A stretch of 64,000 nucleotides of DNA from Candidatus Margulisiibacteriota bacterium (GCA_041661965.1 JBAZTH010000002.1:1-64000); one strand, 5' to 3'; positions 4,220 to 19,729 are shown, numbered from the stretch's first letter. The notes: generated by a model from the letters alone, not told the origin. Translations and numbers: made by a program.

Positions 4220-5721
<1,502 letters not shown>

Positions 5722-5907
5722 TTTCCTCCTTTATTTGAGATCAAATACTTAAGCTCTTTTATCAAAACTTGCTGGGCGTTCATGCTATTAAGTTTTTGGA
5801 TGTAAGCCAAGAACTTATTGCACTCGACCTTTTGGGCCATACTACAGATAACCCCGGCTTGCCTCTTGTCGCAATAACAGCAAGGGTGAATTGGATAAAA
5901 CGGCATA

Positions 5908-6453
5908 CTAAAACACCTCCCTGCCTGCCGGTATGGCAGGCTTGTTTAAAACGAAGCAATGACTGGCGAGATCAGCGGGCAATGAGGCCCCACCGCCGCA
6001 GAGAAACACATAAACCGGAATGCCGCGCCTGACTGCCTGACGCACCGTGAACAGCGTGCCCCGGGACGAACCATGCAGGAAAGCAACCAGGCACGAGCAG
6101 GCAGAGATAAGCCGCTGATTGCGCCCCAGAAGCGCGGAGACCGCCTGCTGCCGCGCCGCGCCGGGAGAAGCCGAACCCCAAACCACCTGACCACCAGCGG
6201 CCAGAAAACGCCCAACCGAGGGACGGACCGAGACCGGAAACCCGCCAGCCGAAGACCAAGCCGAGAAGACCACCCCCGAAGCAGATGCCCCCTGCTCAAC
6301 CAGGGCGGAAAGGGCGAACTGATCAGCCCCAACTGCGCCACCGGAGGCCACCAGGAAGCCACGAGCCCGGAACGCGGAGACCAAAGAGGCAACGAACGGG
6401 GAAAAAGAAGCGGGAAGCGAGCGGGAACCAACGAAACCAGCAATGCGAGACAT
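5908..6453 (-). CDS. DprA/Smf-like Rossmann-fold protein (DNA-processing family, short form)
   Basis: GGAVGADQFALSALVEQGA and GSSRGTLFTVRQAVRRGIPVYVF resemble the DprA Rossmann domain. Preferred start is the second ATG (MSRIAGF) behind RBS GGAGGTG. The gene is GC-rich, unlike the adjacent AT-rich recombinase. Confidence 0.45.
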   Translation of the reverse strand: MSRIAGFVGSRSLPASFSPFVASLVSAFRARGFLVASGGAVGADQFALSALVEQGASASGVVFSAWSSAGGFPVSVRPSVGRFLAAGGQVVWGSASPGAARQQAVSALLGRNQRLISACSCLVAFLHGSSRGTLFTVRQAVRRGIPVYVFLCGGGASLPADLASHCFVLNKPAIPAGREVF

Positions 6454-6515
6454 ATGAGCCACCTCCTGAAACAAGATGAAATGGACCTAGCATTTTTTTC
6501 TTCCTGTCACCCGGA

Positions 6516-6549
6516 GCACATATGCGAGTTAGATGCCGAGCATATGTGC
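6516..6549. promoter_or_regulatory. Palindrome GCACATATGC-N14-GCATATGTGC upstream of the DprA-like/recombinase transcription unit (candidate operator)
   Basis: Perfect 10-bp arms read directly, ~60 bp upstream of the DprA-like start on the minus strand. Confidence 0.3.
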
Positions 6550-6788
6550 GGAGGGCGCGGAGGAGGCAAAATATTACTCGATACCTCGAATATGATATTT
6601 TGCCGACGTAGCAGAGGGGCGCGAGCTACCTTAGAAGGCTTAGCGGCTCAAATGATGTATATCAGCGAACGACCCCTTGACAGGAAAGAAGAAAAAAATG
6701 CTATCATGAGAAAGCTGGAGAAAGAAAAAAAGGCATAAAAAGGCACAGCGAAAAGTGGCATTTAATTCGAAAGAGGCATAGAAGGCAA

Positions 6789-6950
6789 TATTGTATTCCG
6801 ATAGCGTCGATGCCGCCTCCGGCCCGCTGCGCGACCCTGCGGCGGAAGGGGATTTTTCGGCCGATCATAATAATAGGGCGGCTTGTCGGCAACATTCGTC
6901 GCCTCCAAGCCGCCCAACATCAGCGATGGTTCGCTGTAAAGGGAAAATGC
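6789..6950. repeat. IR-R: right copy of the perfect 162-bp inverted repeat
   Basis: Reverse complement of 4290-4451. Confidence 0.9.
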
Positions 6951-7092
6951 CTCGACCCTCTGGCTCTCAAACCATTCAGTGCCGCGCTAGCCAGCTGATT
7001 ATACCCAGCCCATTCATGGATGCCTTTGTCTTCTTCCCTCCCATAGCGGGCGCGTACATTCAGCCCCATTCAGATAGATGCGCGCCCGCTAT
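6951..7092 (-). promoter_or_regulatory. Cassette copy A: inverted promoter+leader (-10 TATAAT at 7003..6998, -35 AGGCAT at 7025..7020, minus strand) fused to a 12-bp-stem hairpin (7043-7092) upstream of parB-like gene 1
   Basis: Homologous to 12276-12460 and 17972-18090. The leader ends ...GGGTCGAGGCA exactly at the IR-R boundary. The hairpin is ATAGCGGGCGCG-N25-CGCGCCCGCTAT. Confidence 0.55.
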
Positions 7093-7165
7093 CGCCAGAA
7101 TATACTATAAAAACAATAAAATAGTTGTATAATAACTGTTAATTGTTATGCTTAGGAGGTCAACC

Positions 7166-8167
7166 ATGAAATACGACAGATTGCCCATCTCACAAATAGA
7201 ACTGGACAAAACAAACCCACGAATCGCACACTGGCTCAAGATGTACACCGATGTATCGCAAGAACAATTATATTTAGCCCTGGGCGTTGCAGAGCCCGGG
7301 AGTGCAGAGGCTGGCCCAAGTTTTTTCAGCTTAAAAGAAGCTATTAAAACAAATAATGGCGTTATTCATCCTATATTAGTGAATAAAAAAAGTAATGGGA
7401 AATATATGGTGATTGAAGGCAATACAAGATTAGCAATTTACATGGATTTTCAAAAAAATAAAGTGGATGGCGACTGGACAACAATACCTTGCATTATTCA
7501 TGAAAATTTAAGTGAGGCCCAAGTTGATGCAATAAGGCTACAAGCGCATTTAGTTGGTGTTCGTCAATGGCAACCATACGCAAAAGCAAGATACCTTAAA
7601 CATTTAAGGGATAGCGAGCATCTTACTTGGAATCAAGTTGTTGACTATTGTGGGGGAAAATCAAAGGAAAACCAAGAGTTGATCGCGGCATACGAAGACA
7701 TGGAGCAATATTACAGAAAAGTACTTGAAGACGATAGTTCATTTGACGAAACAAGATTTAGCGCTTTCGTTGAGCTACAGAAGCCAAGAATAAAGGAAGC
7801 AATTATTAATTCTGGAAACAACCTTAATGATTTTTCTATATGGGTCCGTGACAGGAAAATATCGAGGTTGGAAAACGTCAGGAGGCTCCCCGCAATATTG
7901 TCAGATAAACGAGCAAAAGAACTATTTATGACTAGAGGGGACAAAGCGGCCCTAGCGCTTATCGATTCGGCAATAATTCAAACCGACCAAAGCAGCCTGT
8001 CCTTGATACAGGTTGCCAAACTGCTTTCTGAGAAACTTAGGAAAATTAACTTCGAGGAAATCACAAGGTACAAAGAAGACGCATCCTCCCCTGAATTGGA
8101 AGCATTGCTAGAAACGAAAGATGAGCTGATCTCCTTTTCCAATTTAATCAAGGGGAGTGAGCAATAA
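7166..8167 (+). CDS. ParB/Srx-like N-terminal-domain protein (ParB-like nuclease/NTPase fold), copy 1
   Basis: IHPILVNKK...VIEGNTRLAIY matches the ParB/sulfiredoxin core (GxxR). RBS TAGGAGGT before ATG 7166. First gene of a 5-gene overlapping operon. Confidence 0.55.
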   Translation: MKYDRLPISQIELDKTNPRIAHWLKMYTDVSQEQLYLALGVAEPGSAEAGPSFFSLKEAIKTNNGVIHPILVNKKSNGKYMVIEGNTRLAIYMDFQKNKVDGDWTTIPCIIHENLSEAQVDAIRLQAHLVGVRQWQPYAKARYLKHLRDSEHLTWNQVVDYCGGKSKENQELIAAYEDMEQYYRKVLEDDSSFDETRFSAFVELQKPRIKEAIINSGNNLNDFSIWVRDRKISRLENVRRLPAILSDKRAKELFMTRGDKAALALIDSAIIQTDQSSLSLIQVAKLLSEKLRKINFEEITRYKEDASSPELEALLETKDELISFSNLIKGSEQ

Positions 8168-8579
8168 TTTGCCCGAATCGACTACGCATAAAACGCTGGT
8201 TGGCGCAATCGTAAAATGGGTACACAAATACTACAATGAAGAAATGATCTTATACGTCGATTCCGAAAACGCAATGTTCACCGACGAGCTCCCTCCCTCA
8301 ATAAACACTTGCAAGCCGGATGTATTTGCTCAAGGAAGAAAAAGTAAAAATATTGTTATTGGCGAAGCGAAAACAACCCAAATAGACCTGGAGTCCGATC
8401 ATTCAGAAATTCAATTTACCGCCTATTTAGAATACTGCAAAAAGAACAGCGATTGCAAATTGGTAGTTGCAACCCCGCTTAATATAATTAATTGCGCAAA
8501 ATCAATAATCGATGTGTTGAAGAAAAAGCTGCATTGTGAACAAGTCCACACAGAAATGATTAACCCATTATATTATTAA
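8157..8579 (+). CDS. Small PD-(D/E)xK-like nuclease-fold protein (140 aa)
   Basis: CKPDVF...NIVIGEAKT fits the PD-(D/E)xK core motif. GTG start overlaps the parB1 stop, suggesting translational coupling. Confidence 0.4.
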   Translation: MSNNLPESTTHKTLVGAIVKWVHKYYNEEMILYVDSENAMFTDELPPSINTCKPDVFAQGRKSKNIVIGEAKTTQIDLESDHSEIQFTAYLEYCKKNSDCKLVVATPLNIINCAKSIIDVLKKKLHCEQVHTEMINPLYY

Positions 8580-8582
8580 TTT

Positions 8583-10055
8583 ATGCAAATAATAAACCTT
8601 GACAAGGAGCCCAATATTAATCCAAAGTTCAAGGCTTTCCCATACCAAGATCAGGCCGTTAAGACCGTTTGCGACCTAGAATATGCTGCAATATTTCACG
8701 AACAAGGCCTTGGAAAATCAAAAATTGCAATTGATGTAATGCTCTATTGGCTAGAACATAAATACGTAGACACTGTATTATTTGTAGTCAAAAAGGGATT
8801 AATAAGCAATTGGCAAAAAGAGTTTTCTGCGCACAGCCATATTCGACCAAGATTAATCACTCAAAACAAAAGATCAAATTATTTCGCTTTTAATAGCCCT
8901 TCTCGCCTTATGATTACTCACTACGAAGCGATAAAAACAGAAAAAGAAAGATTTAAGTTGTTTCTCAAAACAAGGACCGTGGCCGTTATCCTGGACGAGT
9001 CAACAAAGATAAAAAATCACAAATCTGGAGTATCGAAAGCGCTATTCGAACTAGCCCCATTATTTCATAAAAGAATAATAATGACAGGACTGCCTGTGGC
9101 AAATCGACCATATGATATTTGGTCGCAAATATATTTTCTAGATCGTGGGATGAGTTTGGGAGATGCCTTTGATGAATTTAAGGCAAATACTGACCTTGAT
9201 AAGGGGTTAAAAGACTCTAAGAAGAGACAAGGGGCGTTCGAAGACTACTTATCCGATATTTTTAATAAAATATCAGGGTTTACCGTAAGAGAAACGAAAA
9301 GCAGTGGCGTCATTAAATTACCAGATAAAATATTTGAAAACATTATTACTTCTTGGGAGCCAAAACAATATGATTTGTATAGGGATATACGCGACAGCAT
9401 GAAGGCTATTGTGGTGAAGGAAGGCATCCCCCAAGAAGAAGACGCCGAGATGATCTTGAAAAGGTTATTACGATTGATTCAAATCGCATCCAACCCAAAA
9501 CTAGTAGACGAAAAATACTCAGAAGAGCCTGGTAAATGCCCATATTTATACGAGCTTGTTTTAAATATATGTCGGAAAAATGAAAAATGCATTGTATGGA
9601 CAACTTTTACTGAAAATGCTGACCAGTTATTTGTTTATCTCAAGGAATTTAACCCAAGAAAAGTGCACGGGAAAATGCCTATTGTCGATCGAAATTGCTC
9701 TATTGATGAATTTATTAAAGAGAAAGACGTGAAGGTGTTGATAGCCACCCCCGGAGCGGCTAAGGAGGGCTTAACATTAACGGTCGCGAATCATGCGATC
9801 TTTTATGATAGGTCCTTCAGCTTAGATGATTATTCTCAGGCCCAAGATAGAATCCATAGAATATCGCAAACAAAAAAGTGCTACGTGTACAATCTGATCA
9901 TGGAAGACTCTGTGGATTTATGGATAGATGCATTATTGCGGGCAAAAGAACTATCGGCAAAACTAACCCATGGAGATATATCGAAAGAATATTTTAGCAG
10001 CCAAATATCATATTCATTTATTGATATCTTCAAGGAAGCTCTGAACATTAAATAA
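8583..10055 (+). CDS. SNF2-family helicase (compact, 490 aa)
   Basis: Motifs: I GLGKSK, II ILDEST, III MTGLPVANRPYDIWSQIYFLD, VI QAQDRIHRISQTK. Confidence 0.85.
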   Translation: MQIINLDKEPNINPKFKAFPYQDQAVKTVCDLEYAAIFHEQGLGKSKIAIDVMLYWLEHKYVDTVLFVVKKGLISNWQKEFSAHSHIRPRLITQNKRSNYFAFNSPSRLMITHYEAIKTEKERFKLFLKTRTVAVILDESTKIKNHKSGVSKALFELAPLFHKRIIMTGLPVANRPYDIWSQIYFLDRGMSLGDAFDEFKANTDLDKGLKDSKKRQGAFEDYLSDIFNKISGFTVRETKSSGVIKLPDKIFENIITSWEPKQYDLYRDIRDSMKAIVVKEGIPQEEDAEMILKRLLRLIQIASNPKLVDEKYSEEPGKCPYLYELVLNICRKNEKCIVWTTFTENADQLFVYLKEFNPRKVHGKMPIVDRNCSIDEFIKEKDVKVLIATPGAAKEGLTLTVANHAIFYDRSFSLDDYSQAQDRIHRISQTKKCYVYNLIMEDSVDLWIDALLRAKELSAKLTHGDISKEYFSSQISYSFIDIFKEALNIK

Positions 10056-10069
10056 CAGGGGGGCTGGTC

Positions 10070-11071
10070 ATGAAAAAAGATGTTTTTACAAAAGACTATA
10101 TAACAATCAGTGGAAAAGAGATAGAAGTTGAATCTGGGTTCATCAATCATGAAAAGCTTAAATATTACGCGGATAATCCTAGGATATATTCGATTATATA
10201 TGCGGGAGAAAAATCGCTTAGCCAAAACGAAATAGAAGAAAGGCTATCCGACAAAGAACATGTTCGTTTATTGATTCAATCGATAAAGGCAAATGGAGGG
10301 TTGACCGACCCCATTATTGTCAGAGGTGGGGACTTTGTTGTGTTAGAAGGAAATAGCCGATTAGCTGCTTATAGAACTTTATCAAAAAAGGACCCTATCC
10401 AGTGGGGAAAGATAAAATGCAAGATTCTCCCTCATGATATAAGTAACGATCTGGTGTTCACCCTTTTAGGCGAATATCATATAATTGGGAGAAAGGATTG
10501 GCAGCCATATGAACAGGCTGGCTATCTATATAGAAGGCATAAGCTTCAAAAGGTCTCCTTAGAGAAGATACAGCACGAATTAGGCTTAAAGAAAAGCGAA
10601 ATGGAACATCTCGTTGAAGTATATGAGTTTATGTTTACCCACAACGACACAGACATAAATCATTGGAGTTATTATGAGGAATATCTTAAATCAAGAGACA
10701 TTAGCAGGGCAAGAGAAACACATAGTGATTTCGATCATTCAATTGTTTGTAAGATCAAAGTCGGCGAAATCACTAAAGCCATAGATATCAGAGATAAATT
10801 AGTCCCCATTTCAAAATCAACCCCCAAAATAATAAAAGGATTCATTTCTGGCAAAATCAAATTTGAGGATGCTTACGAGAGAGCATATGCCGGGGGTGCT
10901 GGGAATGCGGTGTTTGAAAAATTGCATAGATTCCGAGAGTGGCTAGCTAATTCAAGTATCGAAGAGGATATTATTGATAATGGGGATCAGCTAGTTAAAA
11001 AGTGCATATTTGAGCTCGGAAAGATTAGTAAGCGCTCGGACGATATTCTGAATAAAATTAATAAGACATGA
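10070..11071 (+). CDS. ParB/Srx-like N-terminal-domain protein, copy 2
   Basis: DPIIVRGGDFVVLEGNSRLAAYRT is a ParB-like core. A paralog of 7166-8167 (shared EGN(T/S)RLA motif). Confidence 0.55.
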   Translation: MKKDVFTKDYITISGKEIEVESGFINHEKLKYYADNPRIYSIIYAGEKSLSQNEIEERLSDKEHVRLLIQSIKANGGLTDPIIVRGGDFVVLEGNSRLAAYRTLSKKDPIQWGKIKCKILPHDISNDLVFTLLGEYHIIGRKDWQPYEQAGYLYRRHKLQKVSLEKIQHELGLKKSEMEHLVEVYEFMFTHNDTDINHWSYYEEYLKSRDISRARETHSDFDHSIVCKIKVGEITKAIDIRDKLVPISKSTPKIIKGFISGKIKFEDAYERAYAGGAGNAVFEKLHRFREWLANSSIEEDIIDNGDQLVKKCIFELGKISKRSDDILNKINKT

Positions 11072-12171
11072 CAAAGAAAAAAATATTGTTAGTTGAGCCA
11101 AATTTCCCAATACCCGCCAAGAGTAAAAATCATAGGGACTTTTTACCAATCGGGCTACTTAAGCTCGCGAGCTATCATAGGGATAAGGGAGATGTCATTA
11201 AGTTAGTTAGGGGTAATCAATATTTTGATGATTTTTATCCGAATCAGATAAAAATTACATCTTTATTTACGTATTGGTCAAAATATGTATGGGAAAGCGT
11301 CAAATATTATAAAGAGACCTATCCAAAGGCAAAAGTTATTGTTGGCGGCATCTATGCGTCCTTAATGCCGGAACACTGCAAGCAATCGGGATGCGATGAA
11401 GTATTTATTGGGGTAAATGAAAAGGTTGAGAAATTTCGCCCAGCTTATGAACTAGTTAACGTCGATTATCAAATTATTCATACTTCACGGGGCTGTCTGA
11501 GACGATGTGCGTTTTGTGGAACTTGGAGGATAGAGCCCCGCTTCACTCATAAAAAGAGTATTAAAGACGAGATATGTAGTAATCGAATTATATTCTATGA
11601 TAACAATTTATTGGGAAACCCCTTTATTAAAGATATTTTAAAAGAACTAATGAATGCGAAGCATAATGGAAGAGTGGTGTATTCTGAGAGCCAGTGCGGA
11701 ATTGATGGGAGATTGCTTACCCCAGAAATAGCAAAGATGCTTAAACAGGCCAGGTTTATTAACCCTAGAATTGCATGGGACCATGGTTATAATCAATGGA
11801 AGCTAATTAAGAAGCAGATCAAAATGCTTGTTGCTGCTGGATATCCGGCAAAAGATATCTATGTGTTTATGCTTTACAATCACGAGCATGATTATCGTGA
11901 GATGCTAACAAAGATAAGACGATGTAAGAGTTGGGGAGTGCAAATATCTGATTGTAGATATCGCCCATTAGACCAAATCTCTGAAAGTTATTACCCCCGG
12001 AGGGAACAGACCAGCGAAGAATATTATATACATCCTAAATGGACAGACAAACAAATAAAAATGTTTCGAAGAAGCGTTAGAAGGCAGAATATTGAAGTAC
12101 GACATGGTTTCTCCCATTACAGCGAAGAACTTGAACGCTTGGGAAAGAATAGTTCAAAAATCACAGCTTAA
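11068..12171 (+). CDS. Radical SAM enzyme with an N-terminal B12-binding-like domain
   Basis: CLRRCAFCG gives the Cx3Cx2C radical-SAM cluster motif. The N-terminal ~130 aa (LLVEPNFPIPAK...LPIGLLKLASY...VIVGG) resemble a cobalamin-binding Rossmann domain. Start overlaps the parB2 stop (ATGA). Confidence 0.75.
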   Translation: MTKKKILLVEPNFPIPAKSKNHRDFLPIGLLKLASYHRDKGDVIKLVRGNQYFDDFYPNQIKITSLFTYWSKYVWESVKYYKETYPKAKVIVGGIYASLMPEHCKQSGCDEVFIGVNEKVEKFRPAYELVNVDYQIIHTSRGCLRRCAFCGTWRIEPRFTHKKSIKDEICSNRIIFYDNNLLGNPFIKDILKELMNAKHNGRVVYSESQCGIDGRLLTPEIAKMLKQARFINPRIAWDHGYNQWKLIKKQIKMLVAAGYPAKDIYVFMLYNHEHDYREMLTKIRRCKSWGVQISDCRYRPLDQISESYYPRREQTSEEYYIHPKWTDKQIKMFRRSVRRQNIEVRHGFSHYSEELERLGKNSSKITA

Positions 12172-12199
12172 AAGCGCCCCTTGTATGGGCATATATCAA

Positions 12200-12460
12200 G
12201 AAGCGGTTTTTTCGACGTATGGGGGAGAAAAAACCGCTTCTTTGACAAGCTCACATCCTGTGTAGGTCTTTTTTCTTGCATCCATGAATGGTGTTGGGTA
12301 TAATCAGAGTGATTGCCCGGCACTGAATGGTTTGAGAGCCAGAGGGTCGAGGCAATTCTCTCTCTTCTATTGCCGATGGCCTTTAGCCTTCGCCCCACCC
12401 CTCTCCCTCCCCAGCGGGCACGAACATTCAAGCCCCATTCAGATAGATGCGCGCCCGCTG
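12200..12460 (+). promoter_or_regulatory. Cassette copy B: hairpin (12200-12240), TTGACA (12242-12247), near-consensus sigma70 promoter (TTGCAT 12276-12281, 17 bp, TATAAT 12299-12304), ~50-nt leader ending GGGTCGAGGCA (12354), hairpin 12412-12460
   Basis: All elements read directly. Homologous to copies A and C. Sits ~115 bp upstream of the 1233-aa helicase gene. Confidence 0.6.
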
Positions 12461-12573
12461 CTCATAAACACAATTATTTTGCCCTCAATTAAAGAAAAAC
12501 GCCAAATATTTAAGGCAAATATCTTACTTATTCCCAAAAATGGCGTATAATTAAATAGCTGACATAAATTATT

Positions 12574-15500
12574 ATGACAATCTCTAATCTACAATTTCAT
12601 AGTAAGACATTGAGACACTCCTCTAACCCCAACGATTACGCCCTATACCGAGCAGCACTTGAATGGGACTTAATGGAGCCCATTGTAATCGAAAATCGTG
12701 AAGATATAAGGTCAGAAACTAAATGGCATGACCGGCTCGAACCCTATCACCATCAAGTCACCAATTTAATGACATTTTGTCGCCGACTCCCAGTAACATT
12801 GCTTGCTGACGATGTTGGGTTAGGAAAAACCATAAGTGCCGGCCTGGTAATGAGCGAATTAATATCTCGCGGGAGAATATCTAAAATACTAATCGTTTGC
12901 CCAAAGCTACTAATGCCTCAATGGCGAGAAGAACTCGACCTAAAATTCGGAATCCCTTCAATTGAAGCTGTCGGAAGCAAACTTGTTAAAGCTAAACCCC
13001 CAGACGACGCTGGGGCAGTTATAACAACTTACCATTCAGCGCGTTTACATTTTGACGCACTTGCCAAAGTTGGATATGAAATGCTTATCCTTGATGAAGC
13101 ACATAAACTTCGTAATCTATATGGAGTAGATCCTACTCCTCAAGTCGCGTTGCGTTTTCGAAAAGCATTAGCAGATAGACTGTTTAAATATGTTCTTATG
13201 CTTACTGCCACCCCTATTCACAATAGGCTTTGGGACCTTTATTCATTAATTGATTTATTAACCGTCGCTCGTGGGCACGAGAATCCGTTTGGAAGCGAAG
13301 GCATTTTTGCCAGGAAATATATTGCTGATGGTCGCACTCAAGCAAGACAGTTAAAGGTTGAAAGGAAAGACGAATTCCGCTCTATTGTTTATAGTTACAT
13401 GTCTAGAGTAAGGCGCGCAGATGCAAAGCTATATTTTCCGGAAAGGGTCGTTGAGCTTCATAAAGTTGATCCGACCAAAGAAGAACTTGAATTAATAGAT
13501 ATTATTGCTAAACCAATACAAAAGCTTAACCGACTTGCTCAAATCTCTATTCTTCAGGCATTAATAAGCAGTCCCCATGCTTTAGCGGCCCAATTAAATA
13601 CAATGGCTCGTAAGGGGACAGTATCAGAGTTACTAGCCAAAGCCGTACAAGCAGTTGTTGATCGGATGCCGATAACTGCTAAATTAAACGGCCTAAATGT
13701 CTTAGTTGAAAAACTTAGAAAAGAACAGCCCGAGCATTGGCGAATGATTGTATTTACTTGTCGCAGAGAGACACAAATAACAATCCAAGATTTCCTTGAA
13801 TCTCGGGGAATATCATGCGGTCTAATAAACGGGGAATCAGGCCCACGAAATCAAACTACCATTGCTAAATTAAAAACGATTCCTCCAGAAATACATGTAA
13901 TTATTTCCACCGAAGCCGGCTCTGAAGGCGTTAATTTACAAGCAGCTAATGTGTTAATCAATTATGATTTACCCTGGAATCCGATGATCGTTGAGCAACG
14001 AATAGGACGAATTCAGAGGCTAGCCTCGAAGCATGCAAGCGTATGCATTTTTAATATTATATTACAAGGCACTTTTGAGGAATATATTGTTGGAAGACTC
14101 ATGGAAAAGCTGCAGCTGGCCGCACATGCCATTGGAGATGTAGAAGCCTTATTAGAAGCCTCCAATTTAGATGATAATGAAGAGGATGTCTCTACCAGTT
14201 TTGAGGAAAAAATCCGGCGCCTTGTTATAGCCTCTTTGGCCGGAAAAGACGTTGAGCTTGAAGCACGTTCAGCTGCTAATAGTATTGCTGAAGCGAAAAA
14301 AGAATTAGAGCGAGAAGAAAACAATATAAATTCATTGTTAGGCGGAATGGACGACGAATTTTCTGGGCCTAGATGCCCGAGGTTGCCTCGTCAAACGCAA
14401 TCAATGGATGCCCGCAATTTTGTATTGTCCGCCTTGGCTTCTCAAGGGATGCGATTGTCTCCTATTTCAAATGGATTATATTCGGCCGAATCTGGGAGAG
14501 AAAAAGAAGTAATTCGTTTTGATCACAACGAAGTAATAGGAGTAAGAAGTACTTTATATGCGCCGGGATCATCCTCCTTTGAACGTTTAGTAAGCGGAAT
14601 CACGTATGATGGGTGGCATCGAGTCGAAGATATTGACACTAATCCGTTGAAAATAGCGGAAGAACTATGCGTTAACTGGGCGAATAGTTTTGGTAGCACA
14701 TATAAAACAGTAACTACCAAGGAAATAGTTCGTTGTTTTAACGGCACCGCACTAATGAGGGTTAGGGCAACTGTGGCTCATGATGGATATGAACGGCTCG
14801 TTGAAGTTGATTGTACCCCAAGTGAGCATTTTAGTGGCGCGTCTAAAAAATGGCTAGACCCAATAAATGAGATAATTGAAAATCCTACTTCTGTTGGTTT
14901 AATTACGGACAAATTAAATGAAAAGGCGATCTCTGATCCTAGCATCTCGGAATTTTGCCGATTCTACACCGAAAGAAGGACACAAGAAATGAATGCGGCA
15001 GGAGATGATGCTCGCAAAAGGAAGAAACTTGAGGATGATTTTACACCAAGACTGGAGTTATCGTTGGTGGGGCTTAATGGAAAGATGCATCGTAGATTAG
15101 TAATAGATGTGACTTATCAATTAGACCCGGGATTTGAGTATACAAGCATGCTGGCACTAACTCCGTCAACAGCCGAGATTAATAAGGGCCCCGATATGGA
15201 CAAGTGTATGAAGACGGGCCGAGTTGTCCCCCGCGACTGCCTGGACAAGTGCGTTATTAGCAATACTCGGGTGATGAAACACTTACTTACTCCATCAGAA
15301 CTGAGTGGCAGATTGGCCCTTCCTGAACATATTGTTATTTGTTCTTTAAGTAATAAACGAGTCTTAATCGATGAAGTTGAGAAATCAGCAATCACCGATC
15401 AATATGTTACTAAATCCTTGCTTAAAACGTCATCCATGAGCGGCAAAAGAGCGGAACCACAATTCTTCTCTAGATGTGAGTTTAGCAACTCTGAAGTTCT

Positions 15501-16275
15501 TGAGAATGAGATAGCAATTAGCCAAATATCTGGCAAACGCTATCGCATTGATGAGCAATTACACTCCGCAGTCTCAGGCAAAACCGGACATCGCGAAGAA
15601 TTCATTTATTGTTCGGAAACGGGTAAGCCCCTATTATCAGATGAAGCGGAAAGATGTGAAGTGACAGGAAAGACCGTTATGCCTGGGTTGCTTGAGAGAT
15701 GCGAAATAACAGGGAAGAAAGTATTAGCTTCGGAACTTGATAAAAGTGCAGTTACGGGCAAAAAGGCGCTAAAAAAATACTTTGTTCTAAGTAGCCTATC
15801 AGAAGCACATCTTCTTGAACAGGAAGCTATAAAATCTGTTGCGGGCAAATTTTGCTCCCCGTTAGAAGCTAAATCATGCTTCTGGAGTGGCCGTCAATGT
15901 CACCCCGATGATTTGCGTGTGTGTGAATTAACTGGCATACCAATATATTTTGAATTTGCATCAAATGGGGGGGCTGTTCAGCTCGAACCCTTAGTGAATC
16001 TTCTCAATGGGGTTAATAAAAAGGCAGATAAAGCTGATCTCTGGCAAACTATTGCAATAGAAGCCTCTAAGTTAGTTGGCGGGGGAAACTGTAAGGTCGA
16101 GGCGGCAGAGTTATCCCCAGATAAGCATTGTTTAGCCATTTCATTAGAAATCCGGACATGGCTAGGTTTTAAATTGAGACAAGCAGGATTATTATATTCT
16201 CTGGCAGACAACTCTGTGTCAGGCCGAGTAGTAATTGGCAAACGTGATAATAAAGGCTGGAGGTTTATAAGTTAA
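12574..16275 (+). CDS. Large SNF2-family helicase (1233 aa) with a ~650-aa C-terminal extension containing degenerate (S/T)GK repeats
   Basis: GLGKT (motif I), LILDEAHKLRN (II), LTATPIHNRLWDLYSLIDLL (III), QRIGRIQRLAS (VI). C-terminal repeats of ~15-17 aa (VSGKTGH, ETGKPLL, VTGKTVM, ITGKKVL, VTGKKAL, VAGKFCS). Confidence 0.85.
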   Translation: MTISNLQFHSKTLRHSSNPNDYALYRAALEWDLMEPIVIENREDIRSETKWHDRLEPYHHQVTNLMTFCRRLPVTLLADDVGLGKTISAGLVMSELISRGRISKILIVCPKLLMPQWREELDLKFGIPSIEAVGSKLVKAKPPDDAGAVITTYHSARLHFDALAKVGYEMLILDEAHKLRNLYGVDPTPQVALRFRKALADRLFKYVLMLTATPIHNRLWDLYSLIDLLTVARGHENPFGSEGIFARKYIADGRTQARQLKVERKDEFRSIVYSYMSRVRRADAKLYFPERVVELHKVDPTKEELELIDIIAKPIQKLNRLAQISILQALISSPHALAAQLNTMARKGTVSELLAKAVQAVVDRMPITAKLNGLNVLVEKLRKEQPEHWRMIVFTCRRETQITIQDFLESRGISCGLINGESGPRNQTTIAKLKTIPPEIHVIISTEAGSEGVNLQAANVLINYDLPWNPMIVEQRIGRIQRLASKHASVCIFNIILQGTFEEYIVGRLMEKLQLAAHAIGDVEALLEASNLDDNEEDVSTSFEEKIRRLVIASLAGKDVELEARSAANSIAEAKKELEREENNINSLLGGMDDEFSGPRCPRLPRQTQSMDARNFVLSALASQGMRLSPISNGLYSAESGREKEVIRFDHNEVIGVRSTLYAPGSSSFERLVSGITYDGWHRVEDIDTNPLKIAEELCVNWANSFGSTYKTVTTKEIVRCFNGTALMRVRATVAHDGYERLVEVDCTPSEHFSGASKKWLDPINEIIENPTSVGLITDKLNEKAISDPSISEFCRFYTERRTQEMNAAGDDARKRKKLEDDFTPRLELSLVGLNGKMHRRLVIDVTYQLDPGFEYTSMLALTPSTAEINKGPDMDKCMKTGRVVPRDCLDKCVISNTRVMKHLLTPSELSGRLALPEHIVICSLSNKRVLIDEVEKSAITDQYVTKSLLKTSSMSGKRAEPQFFSRCEFSNSEVLENEIAISQISGKRYRIDEQLHSAVSGKTGHREEFIYCSETGKPLLSDEAERCEVTGKTVMPGLLERCEITGKKVLASELDKSAVTGKKALKKYFVLSSLSEAHLLEQEAIKSVAGKFCSPLEAKSCFWSGRQCHPDDLRVCELTGIPIYFEFASNGGAVQLEPLVNLLNGVNKKADKADLWQTIAIEASKLVGGGNCKVEAAELSPDKHCLAISLEIRTWLGFKLRQAGLLYSLADNSVSGRVVIGKRDNKGWRFIS

Positions 16276-16277
16276 AC

Positions 16278-17825
16278 ATGAATGAGAATTATATTACGAA
16301 GACTAGATATCGAGAAGGGTTATTATGTCCAATATTACTGTGGCATAAGATTCACGAGCCAACAAAAGTTCCACAACCTGACCCTTTCGCAAGAATTAAA
16401 ATTGAAGGCGGGATTCAAGTCGGTATATTGGCAAGAAAATTATTTCCTGATGGCCTTCTTATCGAAAAAGAGACGTCGGCAATACTAACCCATGAAAAAT
16501 CGCTAAAAGCACTACAATTGCGAAAGCCATTATTTGAGGCAGGGTTTATCTATAATCATGCATATGCATTAGCAGACATATTAATCCCAGCAGAAGACAA
16601 CTCATGGGATTTACTCGAAGTAAAAGCAGAAAATTCGATTGATGAGAAAGATTATTGCTGTTTGAGTGAGAGCTTTAACCTTGATTGTGCTGACGTTGCA
16701 TTTCAGAAATATACATATACTAAAGCCGGCATAAATATTAGAAATTCTAATATCCTACATCTTAATAAGAAATACATTTATGATGGCAAAAAACTATTAT
16801 TAGAAAAGCTCTTTATTACCCCTGAAAAAGTGAATGACCCTAAAATCAAATTGATTGTACATGATGAGATTGATCGCCACCTCCCCCTTGTCGAAGCCAA
16901 TATAAATAAACTTGAGGAAATATTACAAAACAATGCTCGCCCTAAAACCATATTTAACAGAAATTGCAAGAAATGCGTATTGTACGACGAATGCTCCAAT
17001 ATCTTACCACCCGATCATGTTCTAATGCTAAGAAGGGATATGAAAGGCATTCGCTTCCAAATGCTGGAAAAGGGAATCACAAAATTATCAGACATCCCAA
17101 TAACTTCCGAGATAAAAGACCAAAAGATTGAACAAATTAATGCACATAAGACTGGAACAACATTAATTAAAACCAAGAATATTAGGGAATTTATAGACAA
17201 AATTGAATACCCCGCATATTTTCTAGATTTTGAAACAATTGACCCTGCCATCCCTATCTTTGAGAAAACACATTCATATCAAAAGATCCCATTCCAATAT
17301 TCATTGCATATAATAAAGAAGCACGGGGAAAAAGCAGAACATCATAGCTATTTAGCCAAAGGGGATGTTGATCCCAGGCCCGAATTATTGTCCCAGCTTA
17401 AAGCACTATTGGGCGATAGGGGCTCAATAATAACCTATAACGCTAAATTTGAAAGAGGTAGATTAAAAGAGGCGTCTGAAGACTTTCCAGAATATAGTGA
17501 TTGGTTTAATAATAATATTAATGGGCGCATAATTGATTTAGAAGAACCTTTCGATAAGTTCTTTTACTATGATCCCAAACAAAAAGGCAGTACATCTATT
17601 AAAGCTATTTTACCCGTATTAACTGATTGCAGCTATGAGGGGTTGGAAATATGCGAAGGGGGTACTGCCGCCGCTGAATATATTAGGGTTACTTTTAATA
17701 GTGTCGATGAAAAAGACAAAGAAAATGTTCGGAATCATCTGGAAATATATTGCAAGCAAGACACACAAGCTATGATAGATATACTGGAAAGATTAGAACA
17801 AATAGCCGCTGACAATACAAAATAA
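16278..17825 (+). CDS. DUF2779-like protein: Cas4/RecB-type PD-(D/E)xK nuclease region with Cys cluster plus C-terminal DnaQ-like exonuclease region
   Basis: CPILLWHK...CxxC cysteines and the YPAYFLDFETID motif (DEDD-like exonuclease) recalled from DUF2779 family members. 2 bp downstream of the helicase stop. Confidence 0.45.
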   Translation: MNENYITKTRYREGLLCPILLWHKIHEPTKVPQPDPFARIKIEGGIQVGILARKLFPDGLLIEKETSAILTHEKSLKALQLRKPLFEAGFIYNHAYALADILIPAEDNSWDLLEVKAENSIDEKDYCCLSESFNLDCADVAFQKYTYTKAGINIRNSNILHLNKKYIYDGKKLLLEKLFITPEKVNDPKIKLIVHDEIDRHLPLVEANINKLEEILQNNARPKTIFNRNCKKCVLYDECSNILPPDHVLMLRRDMKGIRFQMLEKGITKLSDIPITSEIKDQKIEQINAHKTGTTLIKTKNIREFIDKIEYPAYFLDFETIDPAIPIFEKTHSYQKIPFQYSLHIIKKHGEKAEHHSYLAKGDVDPRPELLSQLKALLGDRGSIITYNAKFERGRLKEASEDFPEYSDWFNNNINGRIIDLEEPFDKFFYYDPKQKGSTSIKAILPVLTDCSYEGLEICEGGTAAAEYIRVTFNSVDEKDKENVRNHLEIYCKQDTQAMIDILERLEQIAADNTK

Positions 17826-17905
17826 ACATCCAATATATAAGTAACTATATGCTGTCGTAATCTTTTCGGAGGAATTCAAATATAACATTAGTCGGCAAAT
17901 TAATA

Positions 17906-18090
17906 AGCAGTTTTTTCGACGCATGGGGGAGAAAAAAATGATTATTTGACAAATTATTGCCTATTCAGGTCTTTTTTTCATCCATGGTGTTGGGTATAAT
18001 CATTGAGATAGCCCCCGGCGCTGAATGGTCTGATGATCATCGGGTCGAGGCATTTTTCTCTTCTATCGCCTTCTGCCTTCGCCTTTAGCT
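17906..18090 (+). promoter_or_regulatory. Cassette copy C: degenerate version of B (TTGACA 17946-17951, TATAAT 17995-18000, weakened -35, leader to 18052), with no gene downstream
   Basis: Aligned by eye to copy B. Small deletions in the -35 region; the tail hairpin is absent. Confidence 0.5.
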
Positions 18091-18198
18091 TTTGGGAGTA
18101 GAAAAGGCTAAGACTTAGAGGCAAAAGGCTATCAGGCTTGAAGGCTTATTCCCCCCCTATCATCTCAGCAGCTTCAGATATTCAGCAGCGGCAGTATT

Positions 18199-18600
18199 TT
18201 ATTGAGTACTCACAAGATACAAAGAGATCAAAAAACTTAGGGTCGTTAGAATAAATAAAGCCAGCATTCCATATTGAATTAACGGATTTAGCGAGCCCTG
18301 CGGATATATTATTTGAAATATGCAGCGAGTCAGCCATAAGATGCTGGTGGCGGAAAGCATAACAATTATTGAGAAACGATTGGCCTGATTGCCATTGATA
18401 AAGATTATATTTACGACGCCGAACAAGACTAAACATAAAGAAAAAAAGACATTTATCGCCCGAACGGCGACAATTAGTTCGGTCGCGCGAGGATCAAAGT
18501 ATGAATACCAATTCCACAGCCTCGGCACAAAAAAATGCCACAGCCCTAAACAGATCGTTATAAGGCTGCCGGCTGTTGTTAAGATCCTACTAAGATACAT
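18199..18600 (-). CDS. Small polytopic membrane protein co-transcribed with the SPFH gene (possibly an NfeD/YbbJ-like partner)
   Basis: 133 aa, ~4 predicted TM helices, starts 1 bp after the SPFH stop. AT-rich. Confidence 0.4.
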   Translation of the reverse strand: MYLSRILTTAGSLITICLGLWHFFVPRLWNWYSYFDPRATELIVAVRAINVFFSLCLVLFGVVNIIFINGNQANRFSIIVMLSATSILWLTRCIFQIIYPQGSLNPLIQYGMLALFILTTLSFLISLYLVSTQ

Positions 18601-19461
18601 TTATTTCTTGAGCGGCACTATTCCGGCCAGTTCGCCGATAACATTGACCAACTCCCCATTTGCCGGGACGACAATCTTAGCGTTAGTCGCCAATGATTTT
18701 TCAACCGCTTCAAGCTTTCGTAAAACCTGGGCATTGCCAACAAAGTACTTGTTGGCCGCGTCGTTGACCAACTGGATCGCCTGCGCGTCCCCTTCGGCCT
18801 CTAAGATCTTCGCTTGACGCATCCCTTCAGCCTTTTTGATCTCCGCGCGGCGCTGGCCGTCAGCCATCGTCTCGGTCGCGGTCGCAAAATCGATCGCGGC
18901 AATTTTTTCGTTCTCCGCTTTAACAACTTTATTCATCGTCTCCTGAACATCTTTAGGCGGATCGATCTCTTTCAGCTCGGTCCTGACAATTTCCAGGCCC
19001 CACGTCTGGGTCTCTTTTTTTAAGGTCTTTTGCAATTCCTCATTGATCCGGCCGCGTTCACTGTTGGCGGCCTTCAAACTAAGGGTCCCGATTATATTAC
19101 GGAGCGTCGTTCGGGCCAAATTAACGATCTGGTAGCTATAATTATTGACGCTATATTGGGAGGACTTGACGCTGGCTTCATCTTCTTTTACTTTAAAATA
19201 AACCTGCGCGTCGACTCTGGCATTGAGGTTATCATTGGTAATTATTTCCTGGGGTTCGGCATTGATCATAACTTCGGTAATATTGATCTGATACATTTGG
19301 TCAATGACCGGAATAACCCAATGAAAACCGGGATTAGCAAATTTCCGATACTTGCCAAACCGCTCGATCAGCCCACGATGGGTTGGACGAACAATTTTAA
19401 CTCCGGAAAAAAACAACATTACCAGGAACAGACCAATCGACAAAACATATATTAATGACAT
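18601..19461 (-). CDS. SPFH/band-7 (stomatin/prohibitin/HflKC) domain protein
   Basis: N-terminal TM anchor, then an SPFH core (VKIVRPTHRGLIERFGKY...DNLNARVDAQVYFKV) and a coiled-coil tail. Confidence 0.8.
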   Translation of the reverse strand: MSLIYVLSIGLFLVMLFFSGVKIVRPTHRGLIERFGKYRKFANPGFHWVIPVIDQMYQINITEVMINAEPQEIITNDNLNARVDAQVYFKVKEDEASVKSSQYSVNNYSYQIVNLARTTLRNIIGTLSLKAANSERGRINEELQKTLKKETQTWGLEIVRTELKEIDPPKDVQETMNKVVKAENEKIAAIDFATATETMADGQRRAEIKKAEGMRQAKILEAEGDAQAIQLVNDAANKYFVGNAQVLRKLEAVEKSLATNAKIVVPANGELVNVIGELAGIVPLKK

Positions 19462-19621
19462 CTGGCTCCTCCATTAAGAAAGAATAGGCTTCTCTCTGAT
19501 AATAATGTATTTAAGAAAAACAAACAAGTTCTCCTGGTAACAATTCATGGCATTAAGCGGCTCTATATGATAATATTAAATTTGCTGATCGATGGTGGCG
19601 TGAATTTTAAGGAGATGCAAC

Positions 19622-19729
19622 AATGGCTAACAAAGAACAAGGCGGAAATAAGAACGTTAAGAAAGTCGCGAAGTTGTCCCTCAAAGAAAAACGGGCTTTA
19701 AAGAAAGAAAAGCGCGCCCTTAAGGGTTA
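19622..19729 (+). CDS. Putative small basic protein (35 aa, Lys-rich)
   Basis: RBS AGGAG 9 nt before ATG. Translates to MANKEQGGNKNVKKVAKLSLKEKRALKKEKRALKG. Below the ORF-track size cutoff; speculative. Confidence 0.25.

What the first reader, a model, noticed from the sequence alone, without database searches (positions are those of the whole stretch)
6951..18090. Three copies of a ~200-bp promoter/leader/hairpin cassette mark the operon boundaries of the island; copy A is rearranged with its promoter inverted
Copies B (12200-12460) and C (17906-18090) share a conserved-loop hairpin (CGACG[T/C]ATGGGGGAG), a TTGACA, a near-consensus sigma70 promoter (TTGCAT-17-TATAAT in B), and a ~50-nt leader (CAGAGTGATTGCCCGGCACTGAATGGTTTGAGAGCCAGAGGGTCGAGGCA). 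Copy A (6951-7092) contains the same promoter+leader, but in reverse orientation and pointing into IR-R and the recombinase segment. It is fused at its -35 to the downstream tail hairpin that precedes parB-like gene 1. Operon 1 therefore currently lacks the cassette promoter in cis, while copy C drives no gene. This pattern looks like a modular, recombining regulatory unit (promoter inversion or cassette shuffling) rather than ordinary intergenic DNA.
Basis: seen in the sequence. Interest (0 to 1): 0.8.

Follow-up and report, generated by a model that had tools for sequence, protein, structure and literature searches.

The report
Attachment-site ends of a recombinase island
The three repeated ~200-bp units are the conserved end pieces (recombination-site arm plus outward-facing promoter) of a 13.8-kb mobile island that sits directly after a lysine tRNA gene, encodes a serine recombinase and carries two anti-phage gene modules; the same design, with other cargo, recurs in related uncultured bacteria.

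Summary
B and C are direct copies (~80-85% identical). A holds the same -10 and leader inverted, fused to the hairpin that also follows B.

The interpretation needs revising. A related strain (L044, 92-95% nt identity) has an empty site. There, tRNA-Lys is followed directly by the DNA that follows copy C in the window. So 4293-18052 is one insertion.

The four junctions fit serine-integrase logic, with the crossover inside GCATTTT:
- tRNA|IR-L is attL.
- Copy C|flank is attR.
- Copy A read on the minus strand has exactly the attP sequence predicted from attL and attR.

The "leader" is therefore best read as the P arm of attP.

The inverted A arrangement is not a one-off rearrangement. It recurs in six other Saganbacteria/Margulisiibacteriota islands integrated at tRNA-Lys, Leu, Ile or Met, with restriction-modification, arsenic or fluoride cargo.

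In every full locus A-type copies read into the DprA-like/62-aa/recombinase operon. B is an attR-type junction fused to the truncated left end of module 2, so the island is composite.

The role of the intact internal attP-like copy, and of the long inverted repeats around the recombinase operon, is unexplained. This is a new variant of a known kind and moderately interesting.

The parts
4220..4292 (+). tRNA-Lys(CTT), last gene of a Gly-Arg-Leu-Lys cluster. Its 3' end is the B arm of the integration site.
   Evidence: ARAGORN and Rfam. In the empty-site strain L044 it is followed directly by the DNA of window 18053 onward.
4290..4296 (+). attL core GCATTTT, the junction of the tRNA-Lys 3' end with the left end of the island.
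   Evidence: Junction comparison: attB catggcGCATTTTTctctcc, attL catggcGCATTTTccctttac, attR gtcgagGCATTTTTctcttc, copy A reverse complement gtcgagGCATTTTccctttac.
4290..4451 (+). IR-L, a 162-nt arm. It holds a T-rich stretch, a small hairpin with an AACCAT loop, a long GC hairpin, and the last ~50 codons of the recombinase gene. It is read as the P' arm.
   Evidence: 100% complementary to 6789-6950. Fold -42.8 kcal/mol, z = -8.2. The same arms occur in L026, L034, L035, L036 and L043. AACC(A/T)T lies at +17..+22 in 12 of 12 arms.
4258..5721 (-). Large serine recombinase gene. The ORF runs through IR-L and ends 33 nt inside tRNA-Lys.
   Evidence: Pfam Resolvase + Recombinase + Zn_ribbon_recom. 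PHROG integrase at 9.9e-105. YTRVSTDSQ motif. Homologues at 50-91% identity in Margulisiibacteriota.
5718..5906 (-). Conserved 62-aa ORF between the DprA-like gene and the recombinase gene. Function unknown; a candidate accessory or directionality factor.
   Evidence: Called as a 57-63-aa gene in L034-L037. No family hit.
5908..6474 (-). DprA-like (DNA_processg_A) gene, first gene of the recombinase operon.
   Evidence: Pfam 3e-10. Conserved next to the recombinase in L026, L034, L035, L036 and L043.
6789..6950 (-). IR-R, the inverted copy of IR-L, lying between copy A and the recombinase operon.
   Evidence: An independent assembly (L047) breaks exactly at 6789.
6948..7091 (-). Copy A (F2 type), read on the minus strand: hairpin 2 (7045-7090), GA-rich spacer, weak -35 AAGGCA, TATAAT (6998-7003), then leader / P arm (6948-6997) ending in GCA at the IR-R boundary. 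It is an intact attP-like site in inverted orientation, co-oriented with the recombinase operon.
   Evidence: The same arrangement occurs in L001/L026, L011, L034, L035, L036 and L043.
7148..12171 (+). Cargo module 1: ParB_N-like, 140-aa, SNF2 helicase (490 aa), second PDC-M38A / PD-Lambda-5_A-like protein (333 aa), and a B12-binding radical-SAM-like protein.
   Evidence: Pfam and PADLOC. GC 37-40% against ~55% in the flanks.
12195..12354 (+). Copy B, F1 part: hairpin 1 (12198-12242, terminator-like, loop CGACGTATGGGGGAG), TTGCAT (12276-12281), 17-nt spacer, TATAAT (12299-12304), then leader / P arm (12305-12354).
   Evidence: 95% identical over 162 nt to the F1 copy of L007.
12355..12460 (+). 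Copy B, junction part. It starts with a 20-nt diverged copy of the native tRNA flank (attctctctcttctattgcc). From ~12375 comes a truncated F2 of module 2: remnant of the -35 region, CT-rich spacer, and hairpin 2 at 12413-12459.
   Evidence: Compare the flank of C (tttttctcttctatcgcc) and the L044 flank. The hairpin 2 tail is identical to A's over 29 nt, 12431-12459 = 7062-7090. nhmmer F2 profile hit at 12402-12494, minus strand.
12574..17825 (+). Cargo module 2: SNF2 helicase of 1233 aa (DrmD/BrxHI-like) and a DUF2779 protein of 515 aa (Cas4-like nuclease region).
17899..18052 (+). Copy C (F1 type): degenerate hairpin 1, no -35, TATAAT (17995-18000), then leader / P arm (18003-18052). This is the right end of the island, the P side of attR.
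   Evidence: L044 homology resumes within the first ~15 nt after the junction (BLAST from 18068, visible by eye from 18053).
18053..18115 (+). Native host flank (B' arm), including the small hairpin agcttttgggagtagaaaaggct. It is not part of the island.
   Evidence: Present directly after tRNA-Lys in the empty-site contig L044.

Best explanation
The three cassettes are the terminal modules of a tRNA-targeting integrative island that encodes a large serine recombinase.

**The insertion (shown).** Window 4293-18052 (13,760 bp) is inserted between the 3' end of tRNA-Lys and its native downstream DNA. A short core, GCATTTT, is shared by all junctions.

**Roles of the sites (inferred from the junction sequences).**
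- The 50-nt leader is the P arm of the recombinase attachment site.
- Copy C is attR (P arm + host flank).
- tRNA-Lys|IR-L is attL (tRNA + P' arm).
- Copy A is an intact P-core-P' site, identical to the attP that excision would regenerate. It is kept inside the island in inverted orientation, directly upstream of the DprA-like/62-aa/recombinase operon and co-oriented with it.

**Proposed function of A.** I propose that A serves as the promoter/operator region of that operon. Its P arm would then co-evolve with the recombinase and with the terminal copy.

**Other parts of each cassette.** Each also carries an outward-facing promoter and a cargo-proximal hairpin. Hairpin 1 looks like a bidirectional terminator that closes the cargo.

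**Copy B.** B is a second attR-type junction: a P arm identical to A's, plus 20 nt of a diverged copy of the native flank, fused to the truncated left end of module 2. The island is therefore a composite of a current element (recombinase unit + module 1, ends A and B) and an older recombinase-less element (module 2, end C).

**Consequence.** Recombination of attL with B or with C would excise one or both modules.
For: **Empty site**
- L044 1-3959 matches window 103-4071.
- L044 3999-4112 matches window 4185-4296.
- L044 4142-4463 matches window 18068-18408.
- Identity is 92-95%. The junction sequences are given.

**Recombinase**
- The Pfam domain triplet is present, as is the serine-recombinase motif.

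**Recurrence of the design**
- The order tRNA -> arm | recombinase operon | arm <- F2 | cargo | F1 -> recurs at tRNA-Lys (L026), tRNA-Leu (L034), tRNA-Ile (L035, L043) and tRNA-Met (L036).
- Cargo differs in each.

**Co-variation with the target tRNA**
- The last 3 nt of the leader track the last 3 nt of the adjacent tRNA: GCA with Lys and Leu, CCA with Ile and Met.

**Matching of the two ends**
- F1 and F2 leaders match within an element: 33/33 (L026), 33/33 (window A/B), 33/33 (L034) and 32/33 (L011). L035, L036 and L043 are near-identical.
- Between genomes the mean is 26.2/33.
- The recombinase-less locus L007 is unmatched at 26/33.

**Fixed-offset inverted motifs**
- The GGT of AATGGT always lies 23 nt before the junction in 8 leader variants.
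- AACC(A/T)T always lies at +17..+22 in 12 of 12 arms.
- The flanks of B and C lack it, as expected for recombinant half-sites.

**Serial integration**
- Signatures of it appear in L011 and L017, where F1 is followed by a remnant of a P'-type arm.
- The same process has been described for tRNA-linked islands (10.1101/2020.12.28.424599).

**Cargo boundaries**
- They coincide with the outer edges of hairpin 2 and hairpin 1.
Against: - No activity is shown. I have no circular junction, and 17 contigs of the closest relative all have the same arrangement.
- From general knowledge of serine integrases (not tested here), an integrated element is not expected to retain an intact attP. The function I give to A, and to the 162-220-nt inverted arms, is inference only.
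- The flank of B is a copy of the host flank and not a P' arm. Simple serial integration does not produce it without an extra, unproven step such as illegitimate or homologous recombination.
- Conservation extends well beyond a ~25-bp half-site: the promoter blocks and a ~7-bp stem ending one base before the junction. A role for RNA or for regulation in addition is likely.
- The exact crossover dinucleotide cannot be fixed within GCATTTT.
- Only one empty-site contig was found. It is short (4.46 kb) and comes from a MAG labelled with another phylum.
Confidence: 0.72

Rival explanations
1. The cassettes are primarily mobile regulatory units (promoter + 5' leader + hairpin) that drive or insulate the operons, and they are moved by promoter inversion or shuffling.
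For: - TATAAT is perfect in all three copies.
- CTTGCA-17-TATAAT is conserved in most F1 copies of other genomes.
- A-type copies are co-oriented with the recombinase operon in all full loci.
- Hairpin 1 upstream is terminator-like, with six different stems and one loop sequence.
- B lies 220 nt upstream of module 2.
Against: - C abuts native host DNA and has no co-oriented gene downstream. It also lacks a -35.
- The -35 is only 3/6 and the promoter scan does not call it.
- Several copies elsewhere have hairpin insertions that split -35 from -10, yet keep the sequence blocks.
- Both cargo modules have their own TATAAT just upstream of the first gene.
- The inverted state of A is conserved, not variable.
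- The junction logic with the empty site explains the positions without any regulatory role.
Confidence: 0.15
2. The inverted identical leaders A and B are the recombinase's sites for inverting module 1, or for swapping it against another cassette flanked by the same sites. This would be recombinase-mediated cassette exchange, comparable to pdif modules or shufflons.
For: - A and B are inverted and share an identical 36-nt core.
- F1 and F2 match within every recombinase-bearing element but not in the recombinase-less L007.
- Cargo differs completely between elements that have similar recombinases.
Against: - No orientation variants appear among 17 contigs.
- Cargo genes read from F2 toward F1 both in the window and in L026.
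- Matching ends are equally expected if both copies bind the same recombinase, or if they share descent as element ends.
- From general knowledge of serine integrases, the integrase alone recombines attP with attB, not like with like (not tested here).
Confidence: 0.1
3. The leader is a host small-RNA gene (a tRNA-acceptor-like hairpin with its own promoter and U-rich tail). The cargo sits in a hotspot between two such genes and is exchanged by homologous recombination.
For: - The hairpin is kept: 87% of cells pair, against 36-52% in slid controls.
- In divergent lineages a ~7-bp stem ends one base before the junction, with changed sequences (L035, L036, L043).
- A T-rich tail follows most copies.
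- C-to-T changes occur opposite G on the leader strand only.
Against: - The empty site has no such gene.
- There is no Rfam match, even at E <= 10.
- Only one double-sided change is seen, and the search pattern itself fixed the 3' strand.
- Only two exact-pattern copies occur in the complete 1.67-Mb WOR-1 genome, both at the island.
Confidence: 0.05
4. The cassettes are fragments of an IS or MITE family.
For: - The 63-nt inverted repeat A/B resembles terminal inverted repeats.
Against: - There are no dispersed copies.
- There is no target-site duplication and no transposase.
- The copies occur only at the ends and internal junctions of islands next to tRNA genes.
Confidence: 0.02

Closest known systems
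Serine-integrase (large serine recombinase) integrative elements and prophages (attP x attB -> attL + attR)
   Same: - The recombinase has the resolvase, recombinase and zinc-ribbon domains.
- The insertion has a very short shared core (<= 7 nt).
- Each junction is a hybrid of element and host arms.
- The recombinase gene lies next to one end.
- Inverted motifs sit at fixed distance on either side of the junction.
   Different: - An intact attP-like copy is kept inside the integrated element, in inverted orientation.
- Inverted arms of 162-220 nt bracket the recombinase operon.
- The recombinase ORF runs across attL into the tRNA.
- The P arm lies in a conserved promoter/hairpin module.
- No phage genes are present.
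tRNA-linked islands built by serial integration (tycheposons of Prochlorococcus; 10.1101/2020.12.28.424599)
   Same: - Integration next to tRNA genes.
- Cargo for defence or resistance.
- Newer elements push older, decaying ones outward.
- Some tycheposons use a large serine recombinase.
   Different: - Tycheposons mostly use tyrosine recombinases and are flanked by partial tRNA copies.
- Here the end repeat is only tRNA-like (T-loop-like GGTT and the same last 3 nt).
- There is no replication module.
- The host phylum is different.
SCCmec-type cassette chromosomes (Ccr serine recombinases)
   Same: - Cargo modules accumulate in tandem at one chromosomal site.
- Modules are separated by repeated attachment-site sequences.
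- Modules without their own recombinase can sit beside one that has it.
- Alternative excision products are possible.
   Different: - The target is a tRNA 3' end, not rlmH.
- There is a single recombinase, with DprA-like and 62-aa partners.
- The internal site is inverted.
- This comparison rests on my own knowledge of SCC elements and was not tested here.
Integron cassette arrays
   Same: - Gene modules are bounded by hairpin-forming elements.
- The recombinase gene sits beside the array.
- A promoter lies at the platform end.
   Different: - There is no IntI tyrosine recombinase and no attC/attI structure.
- Modules are multi-gene and carry their own promoters.
- The empty site shows that the whole array inserted as an island.

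Membership tests
Large serine recombinase integrative element | Recombinase with an N-terminal resolvase catalytic domain, a recombinase domain and a zinc-ribbon domain, and a catalytic serine motif | tested here: met
   Pfam PF00239 at 1.1e-38, PF07508 at 8.6e-12, PF13408 at 5.5e-11. YTRVSTDSQ near the N terminus.
Large serine recombinase integrative element | The element is absent from an otherwise collinear empty site, and attL and attR are hybrids of attB and attP with only a short common core | tested here: met
   L044 against the window. The common core is GCATTTT. One empty-site contig only.
Large serine recombinase integrative element | Attachment sites of ~40-50 bp with imperfect dyad symmetry around the crossover | tested here: inconclusive
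   ATGGT at a fixed 23 nt before the junction, and AACCAT at +17..+22 after it, in all lineages. Half-site geometry and the crossover dinucleotide cannot be fixed from sequence alone.
Large serine recombinase integrative element | Recombination activity: a circular form, integration and excision, and a directionality factor | not testable with these tools
   No reads are available. All 17 contigs with the closest recombinase show the integrated form.
Sigma-70 promoter with 5' leader (regulatory cassette) | -35 and -10 hexamers at 16-18 nt spacing, with a co-oriented gene downstream | tested here: inconclusive
   - B has TTGCAT-17-TATAAT (3/6 + 6/6), which the scan does not call.
- A has AAGGCA-17-TATAAT, with the recombinase operon downstream.
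- C has no -35 and no downstream gene.
- Transcription starts cannot be tested here.
Described structured RNA family (Rfam) | Match to a curated covariance model | tested here: not met
   Only tRNAs reach the gathering score. Nothing relevant appears at E <= 10 around A or B.
Structured RNA (undescribed) | Base pairs supported by compensatory changes | tested here: inconclusive
   - Leader: 87% of cells pair, but only 1 double-sided change; 17 of 500 shuffles reach the score.
- Hairpin 1: at least 6 different complementary stems with one conserved loop. Its A-run/T-run flanks also fit a plain terminator.
Invertible DNA switch (invertase with inverted repeats) | Both orientations of the segment are present in populations or relatives | tested here: not met
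   - The orientation of the recombinase segment and of the cargo is the same in all 17 contigs of the closest relative, and in the window and all 5 other full loci (L026, L034, L035, L036, L043; L011 is cut before the recombinase).
- Caveat: the 162-nt repeat exceeds the assembler k of 141 in at least one assembly.
IS / MITE | Dispersed copies with terminal inverted repeats and target-site duplications | tested here: not met
   Only the locus copies occur in the window. Only two exact-pattern copies occur in a complete 1.67-Mb relative, both at its island.
Integron | IntI tyrosine recombinase, attI, and attC-bounded single-gene cassettes | tested here: not met
   Pfam scans of the island's main ORFs (>=140 aa) and the 62-aa ORF found no tyrosine recombinase. 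Modules hold 2-5 genes.

The most novel reading that the evidence does not exclude
The intact inverted attP-like copy (A), bracketed with the recombinase operon by long inverted arms, is a working platform and not a passive operator. The serine recombinase would use it, together with the terminal copies, to capture, invert or swap whole multi-gene cargo modules. That would make this an integron-like acquisition system built on a serine recombinase.

A related possibility is that the promoter-driven, tRNA-acceptor-like leader RNA takes part in controlling or directing recombination.
Probability: 0.12. Interest if true: 0.85.

Novelty: new variant of a known kind. Interest (0 to 1): 0.55.

Why it matters
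- **A defined element family.** The analysis sets base-pair boundaries and attB/attL/attR/attP-like sequences for a family of tRNA-targeting serine-recombinase islands. These move defence and resistance genes in an uncultured lineage (Saganbacteria/Margulisiibacteriota).
- **Natural specificity series.** Related recombinases (57-91% identical) target Lys, Leu, Ile and Met tRNA ends, and their P arms co-vary with the target. This links recombinase specificity to site sequence, which is useful for engineering serine integrases.
- **Open design questions.** The retained internal attP-like site and the long inverted arms are features I could not match to described elements. They raise testable questions about autoregulation and cargo turnover.
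- **Candidate defence systems.** The boundaries isolate two candidate SNF2-based defence systems as discrete units.

Tried and rejected
- **Rfam.** Searches at gathering score and at E <= 10 found no family for the leader or the hairpins.
- **Leader as a structured RNA.** The hairpin is conserved but covariation is too weak to claim. My search pattern also fixed the 3' strand.
- **A third decayed unit after C.** I first took the small hairpin and CT-rich DNA after C for a remnant of one. L044 shows this is native host DNA, so I dropped the idea.
- **Inversion of the recombinase segment or of the cargo.** I found no variants in 17 contigs.
- **Viral contigs.** The only hit is a chance match in an unrelated coding region, the same contig as L015.
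- **Exact-protein look-ups.** The window's recombinase and its right-flank hydrolase are not on record.
- **Pyrophosphatase homologues.** P0125 has a different synteny without the tRNA cluster, and P0123 has no DNA held.
- **Related recombinase P0033 at tRNA-Glu.** It lacks the DprA-like gene, the inverted arms and the F units, so the design is not universal in the family.
- **Literature.** I found no paper linking Saganbacteria and serine recombinases.

Full report
**1.

B (12195-12460) and C (17899-18090) are direct copies in three gapless blocks of 78-85% identity. A (6945-7007) is the reverse complement of B (12295-12357) at 89% over 63 nt. The hairpin at 7062-7090 equals 12431-12459 in direct orientation.

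The 36-nt core of the leader is identical in A and B and is never found in shuffled sequence. Profile searches find no further copy in the 64 kb.

Three details need correcting.
- The -35 of B (TTGCAT) matches the consensus at 3 of 6 positions, and the promoter scan does not call it.
- C has no -35 at all, and its hairpin is degenerate (-8.6 against -25.2 kcal/mol).
- A has AAGGCA in the -35 position.

**2. Setting**

A tRNA cluster (Gly, Arg, Leu, Lys) ends at 4292. From 4290 a 162-nt sequence is repeated, perfectly inverted, at 6789-6950.

Between these arms, all on the minus strand, lie three genes:
- a DprA-like gene;
- a 62-aa ORF;
- a large serine recombinase with the resolvase, recombinase and zinc-ribbon domains and a YTRVSTDSQ motif.

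The recombinase ORF runs through the left arm and stops inside tRNA-Lys.

To the right follow A, module 1, B, module 2 and C.
- Module 1 (7148-12171) holds two ParB/PDC-M38A-like proteins, an SNF2 helicase and a radical-SAM-like protein.
- Module 2 (12574-17825) holds a 1233-aa SNF2 helicase and a DUF2779 protein.

The cargo has 37-43% G+C against about 55% in the flanks. The flanking genes are an H+-pyrophosphatase on the left and an alpha/beta hydrolase on the right. Both are syntenic with candidate division WOR-1 RIFOXYB2_FULL_45_9.

**3. The units belong to a family with two fixed forms**

I scanned public genomes and metagenomes for CTGAATGGT-N12-GGGTCGAGGCA. Apart from chance hits, matches came only from WOR-1/Saganbacteria-type contigs. 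Looking up homologues of the recombinase added more divergent examples.

- **F1 form** (like B and C): hairpin 1, CTTGCA-17-TATAAT, then the leader.
- **F2 form** (like A): hairpin 2, a GA-rich spacer, a degenerate or weakened promoter, then the same leader.

In six other loci with a recombinase the order is the same as in the window: tRNA -> arm | recombinase operon | arm <- F2 | cargo | F1 ->.

| Locus | Adjacent tRNA | Cargo |
|---|---|---|
| L026 | Lys | AlwI restriction-modification + AAA_13 ATPase |
| L034 | Leu | C5-methylase restriction-modification |
| L035 | Ile | arsenic / thioredoxin genes |
| L036 | Met | MmeI-like restriction-modification |
| L043 | Ile | CrcB / fluoride genes |
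| L011 | locus cut before the tRNA | not annotated |

F2 always reads into the DprA-like/recombinase operon.

F2 copies that keep TATAAT and are joined to hairpin 2 at the -35 also occur in L034, L035 and L043. So the fused, inverted state of A is the normal design and not a rearrangement of this island.

Loci without a recombinase look like decayed versions. This applies to L007, L025, L016 and L017. In them the tRNA is followed by a short palindrome or by the first 30-40 nt of the arm, and then by F2 or by hairpin 2.

**4. The decisive result: an empty site**

The closest homologue of the pyrophosphatase (98% aa) lies on a 4.46-kb contig, L044. At 92-95% nt identity it matches window 103-4296 and then continues with window 18068-18408.

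Read base by base, tRNA-Lys in L044 is followed at once by the DNA that follows the leader of C in the window. Window 4293-18052 is therefore one 13.76-kb insertion.

| Junction | Sequence |
|---|---|
| attB (L044) | catggcGCATTTTTctctcc |
| Left junction (attL) | catggcGCATTTTccctttac |
| Right junction (copy C, attR) | gtcgagGCATTTTTctcttc |
| Copy A on the minus strand | gtcgagGCATTTTccctttac |

Copy A thus has exactly the attP sequence that the two outer junctions imply. This is the arithmetic of a serine integrase: attP x attB gives attL + attR, with the crossover somewhere in GCATTTT.

On this reading:
- the leader is the P arm;
- the inverted 162-nt arm is the P' arm;
- C is attR;
- A is an intact attP-like site kept inside the island.

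**5. Further support from comparison**

- **Target tracking.** The last three bases of the leader follow the last three bases of the adjacent tRNA: GCA with Lys and Leu, CCA with Ile and Met.
- **Fixed left motif.** A GGT (within AATGGT) lies exactly 23 nt before the junction in eight leader variants, although the sequence in between differs almost completely between lineages.
- **Fixed right motif.** Its inverted counterpart AACC(A/T)T lies at +17 to +22 in 12 of 12 arms. tRNAs carry their T-loop GGT at 19 nt.
- **Half-sites.** The flanks of B and C lack the right-hand motif, as recombinant half-sites should.
- **Matching ends.** F1 and F2 leaders are identical or nearly so within an element (33/33, 33/33, 33/33, 32/33; near-identical in L035, L036 and L043). 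Between genomes the mean is 26.2/33. The recombinase-less L007 is unmatched, and C differs from A/B at 8 of 33 positions.
- **My reading.** A and B are the two ends of the current element, and C is the end of an older one.

**6. What B is**

B is a complete F1 whose leader is followed by 20 nt resembling the native tRNA flank: attctctctcttctattgcc, against tttttctcttctatcgcc after C. At about 12375 this is fused to a truncated F2, consisting of a remnant of the -35 region, the CT-rich spacer and hairpin 2.

So module 2 has lost its own recombinase unit and its inner leader.

Serial integration is documented for tRNA-linked islands. L011 and L017 show its signature, since there F1 is followed by a remnant of a P'-type arm. 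It does not by itself give the flank seen at B. An added step is needed, for example import of the current element together with a piece of donor flank by recombination anchored in the tRNA region. That step is inference.

**7. What remains open**

- **Copy A and the arms.** I cannot show why an intact attP-like site and the long inverted arms are kept.
  - The arms are identical in the window, L035 and L036. They have diverged to 76% in L026, and also in L034 (not quantified), where two alternative versions of the long hairpin occur.
  - This points to occasional gene conversion rather than to recent duplication.
  - My best guess is that A is the promoter/operator of the recombinase operon. 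It would be bound by the recombinase and so would co-evolve with the terminal copy.
  - The strong hairpins of the arm (-42.8 kcal/mol, z = -8.2) may act as attenuators.
- **Outward promoters.** Those of B and C may be by-products of this duplication, or may act after circularisation.
- **Leader hairpin.** Its ~7-bp stem ends one base before the junction, like an acceptor stem. It is kept with changed sequence in L035, L036 and L043, but formal covariation is weak. An RNA role is possible and unproven.
- **Hairpin 1.** It has at least six different complementary stems with one conserved G-rich loop and A/T-run flanks. This fits a bidirectional terminator that closes the cargo.
- **Assembly caveat.** The 162-nt repeat is longer than the k-mer of at least one assembly, which breaks exactly at 6789. 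The orientation of 4452-6788 in this window therefore rests on the assembler. Loci with diverged arms show the same orientation.

**8. Verdict**

The units are real, modular and linked to recombination. They are the attachment-site ends and an internal attachment-site copy of a composite serine-recombinase island, not shuffling promoters.

The kind of element is known. This family and its internal inverted attP-like site, with long arms around the recombinase operon, appear undescribed. I found no paper linking this lineage with serine recombinases.

Noticed in passing
window 4258-4292 and 4290-4451: The recombinase ORF continues through the left inverted arm and stops 33 nt inside tRNA-Lys. 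Its last ~64 codons are therefore att-site and tRNA DNA. After excision the C-terminus would read into the reverse complement of a leader instead (compare ORF 6791-7132).
   Followed up: partly
L014 6540-6640, L017 9790-9860, L019 3330-3380, L023 3860-3900, L035 8740-8790: A family of short hairpin insertions (cttgcc..., cctgcctgccggcaggcagg) sits inside some F copies. Some fall between -35 and -10, others between -10 and the leader. They look like small REP/MITE-like elements of these genomes.
   Followed up: no
window 7148-12171: Module 1 pairs two ParB_N / PDC-M38A / PD-Lambda-5_A-like proteins with a 490-aa SNF2 helicase (ZorD/DpdE-like) and a B12-binding radical-SAM-like protein. It matches no complete PADLOC system and may be an undescribed defence system.
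   Followed up: partly
window 12574-17825: Module 2 pairs a 1233-aa SNF2 helicase (BrxHI/DrmD-like) with a DUF2779 protein that has a weak Cas4-like hit. DUF2779 homologues are common in Margulisiibacteriota and Omnitrophota contigs.
   Followed up: partly
window 12393-12412 (minus strand): The spacer next to hairpin 2 in B reads ggggagggagaggggtgggg on the minus strand, a canonical four-run G-quadruplex motif. G-rich loops (GTGGGGGAG) are also conserved in hairpins 1 and 2.
   Followed up: no
window 28147-28900: tRNA-His is followed by a 1-kb stretch of 37.6% G+C containing a 204-aa ORF on the minus strand. This is possibly another small insertion at a tRNA. In L016 and L028 an F1 copy lies close to tRNA-His.
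   Followed up: no
L017 12420-13240: A different insertion carrying a 219-aa gene has split tRNA-Lys from a 16-nt direct repeat of its 3' end (gtccttcatggcgca). That repeat is still attached to the remnant of the arm and to hairpin 2.
   Followed up: no
L044 (GCA_041661845.1), P0241: Source labels disagree with the gene content. The empty-site contig is labelled Kiritimatiellales, and the window's DUF2779 protein is labelled Ignavibacteriaceae. Synteny, the pyrophosphatase (76-81% aa) and the recombinase (91% aa) all point to Saganbacteria/Margulisiibacteriota. Mis-binning is likely.
   Followed up: partly
window 18053-19730 vs L037 376-2342, L038, L039: The stretch between the island's right end and the conserved hydrolase gene differs between relatives. 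It holds SPFH + a 133-aa ORF here, and an Rce1-like gene or other small ORFs in WOR-1 strains. The native flank itself is therefore variable.
   Followed up: no
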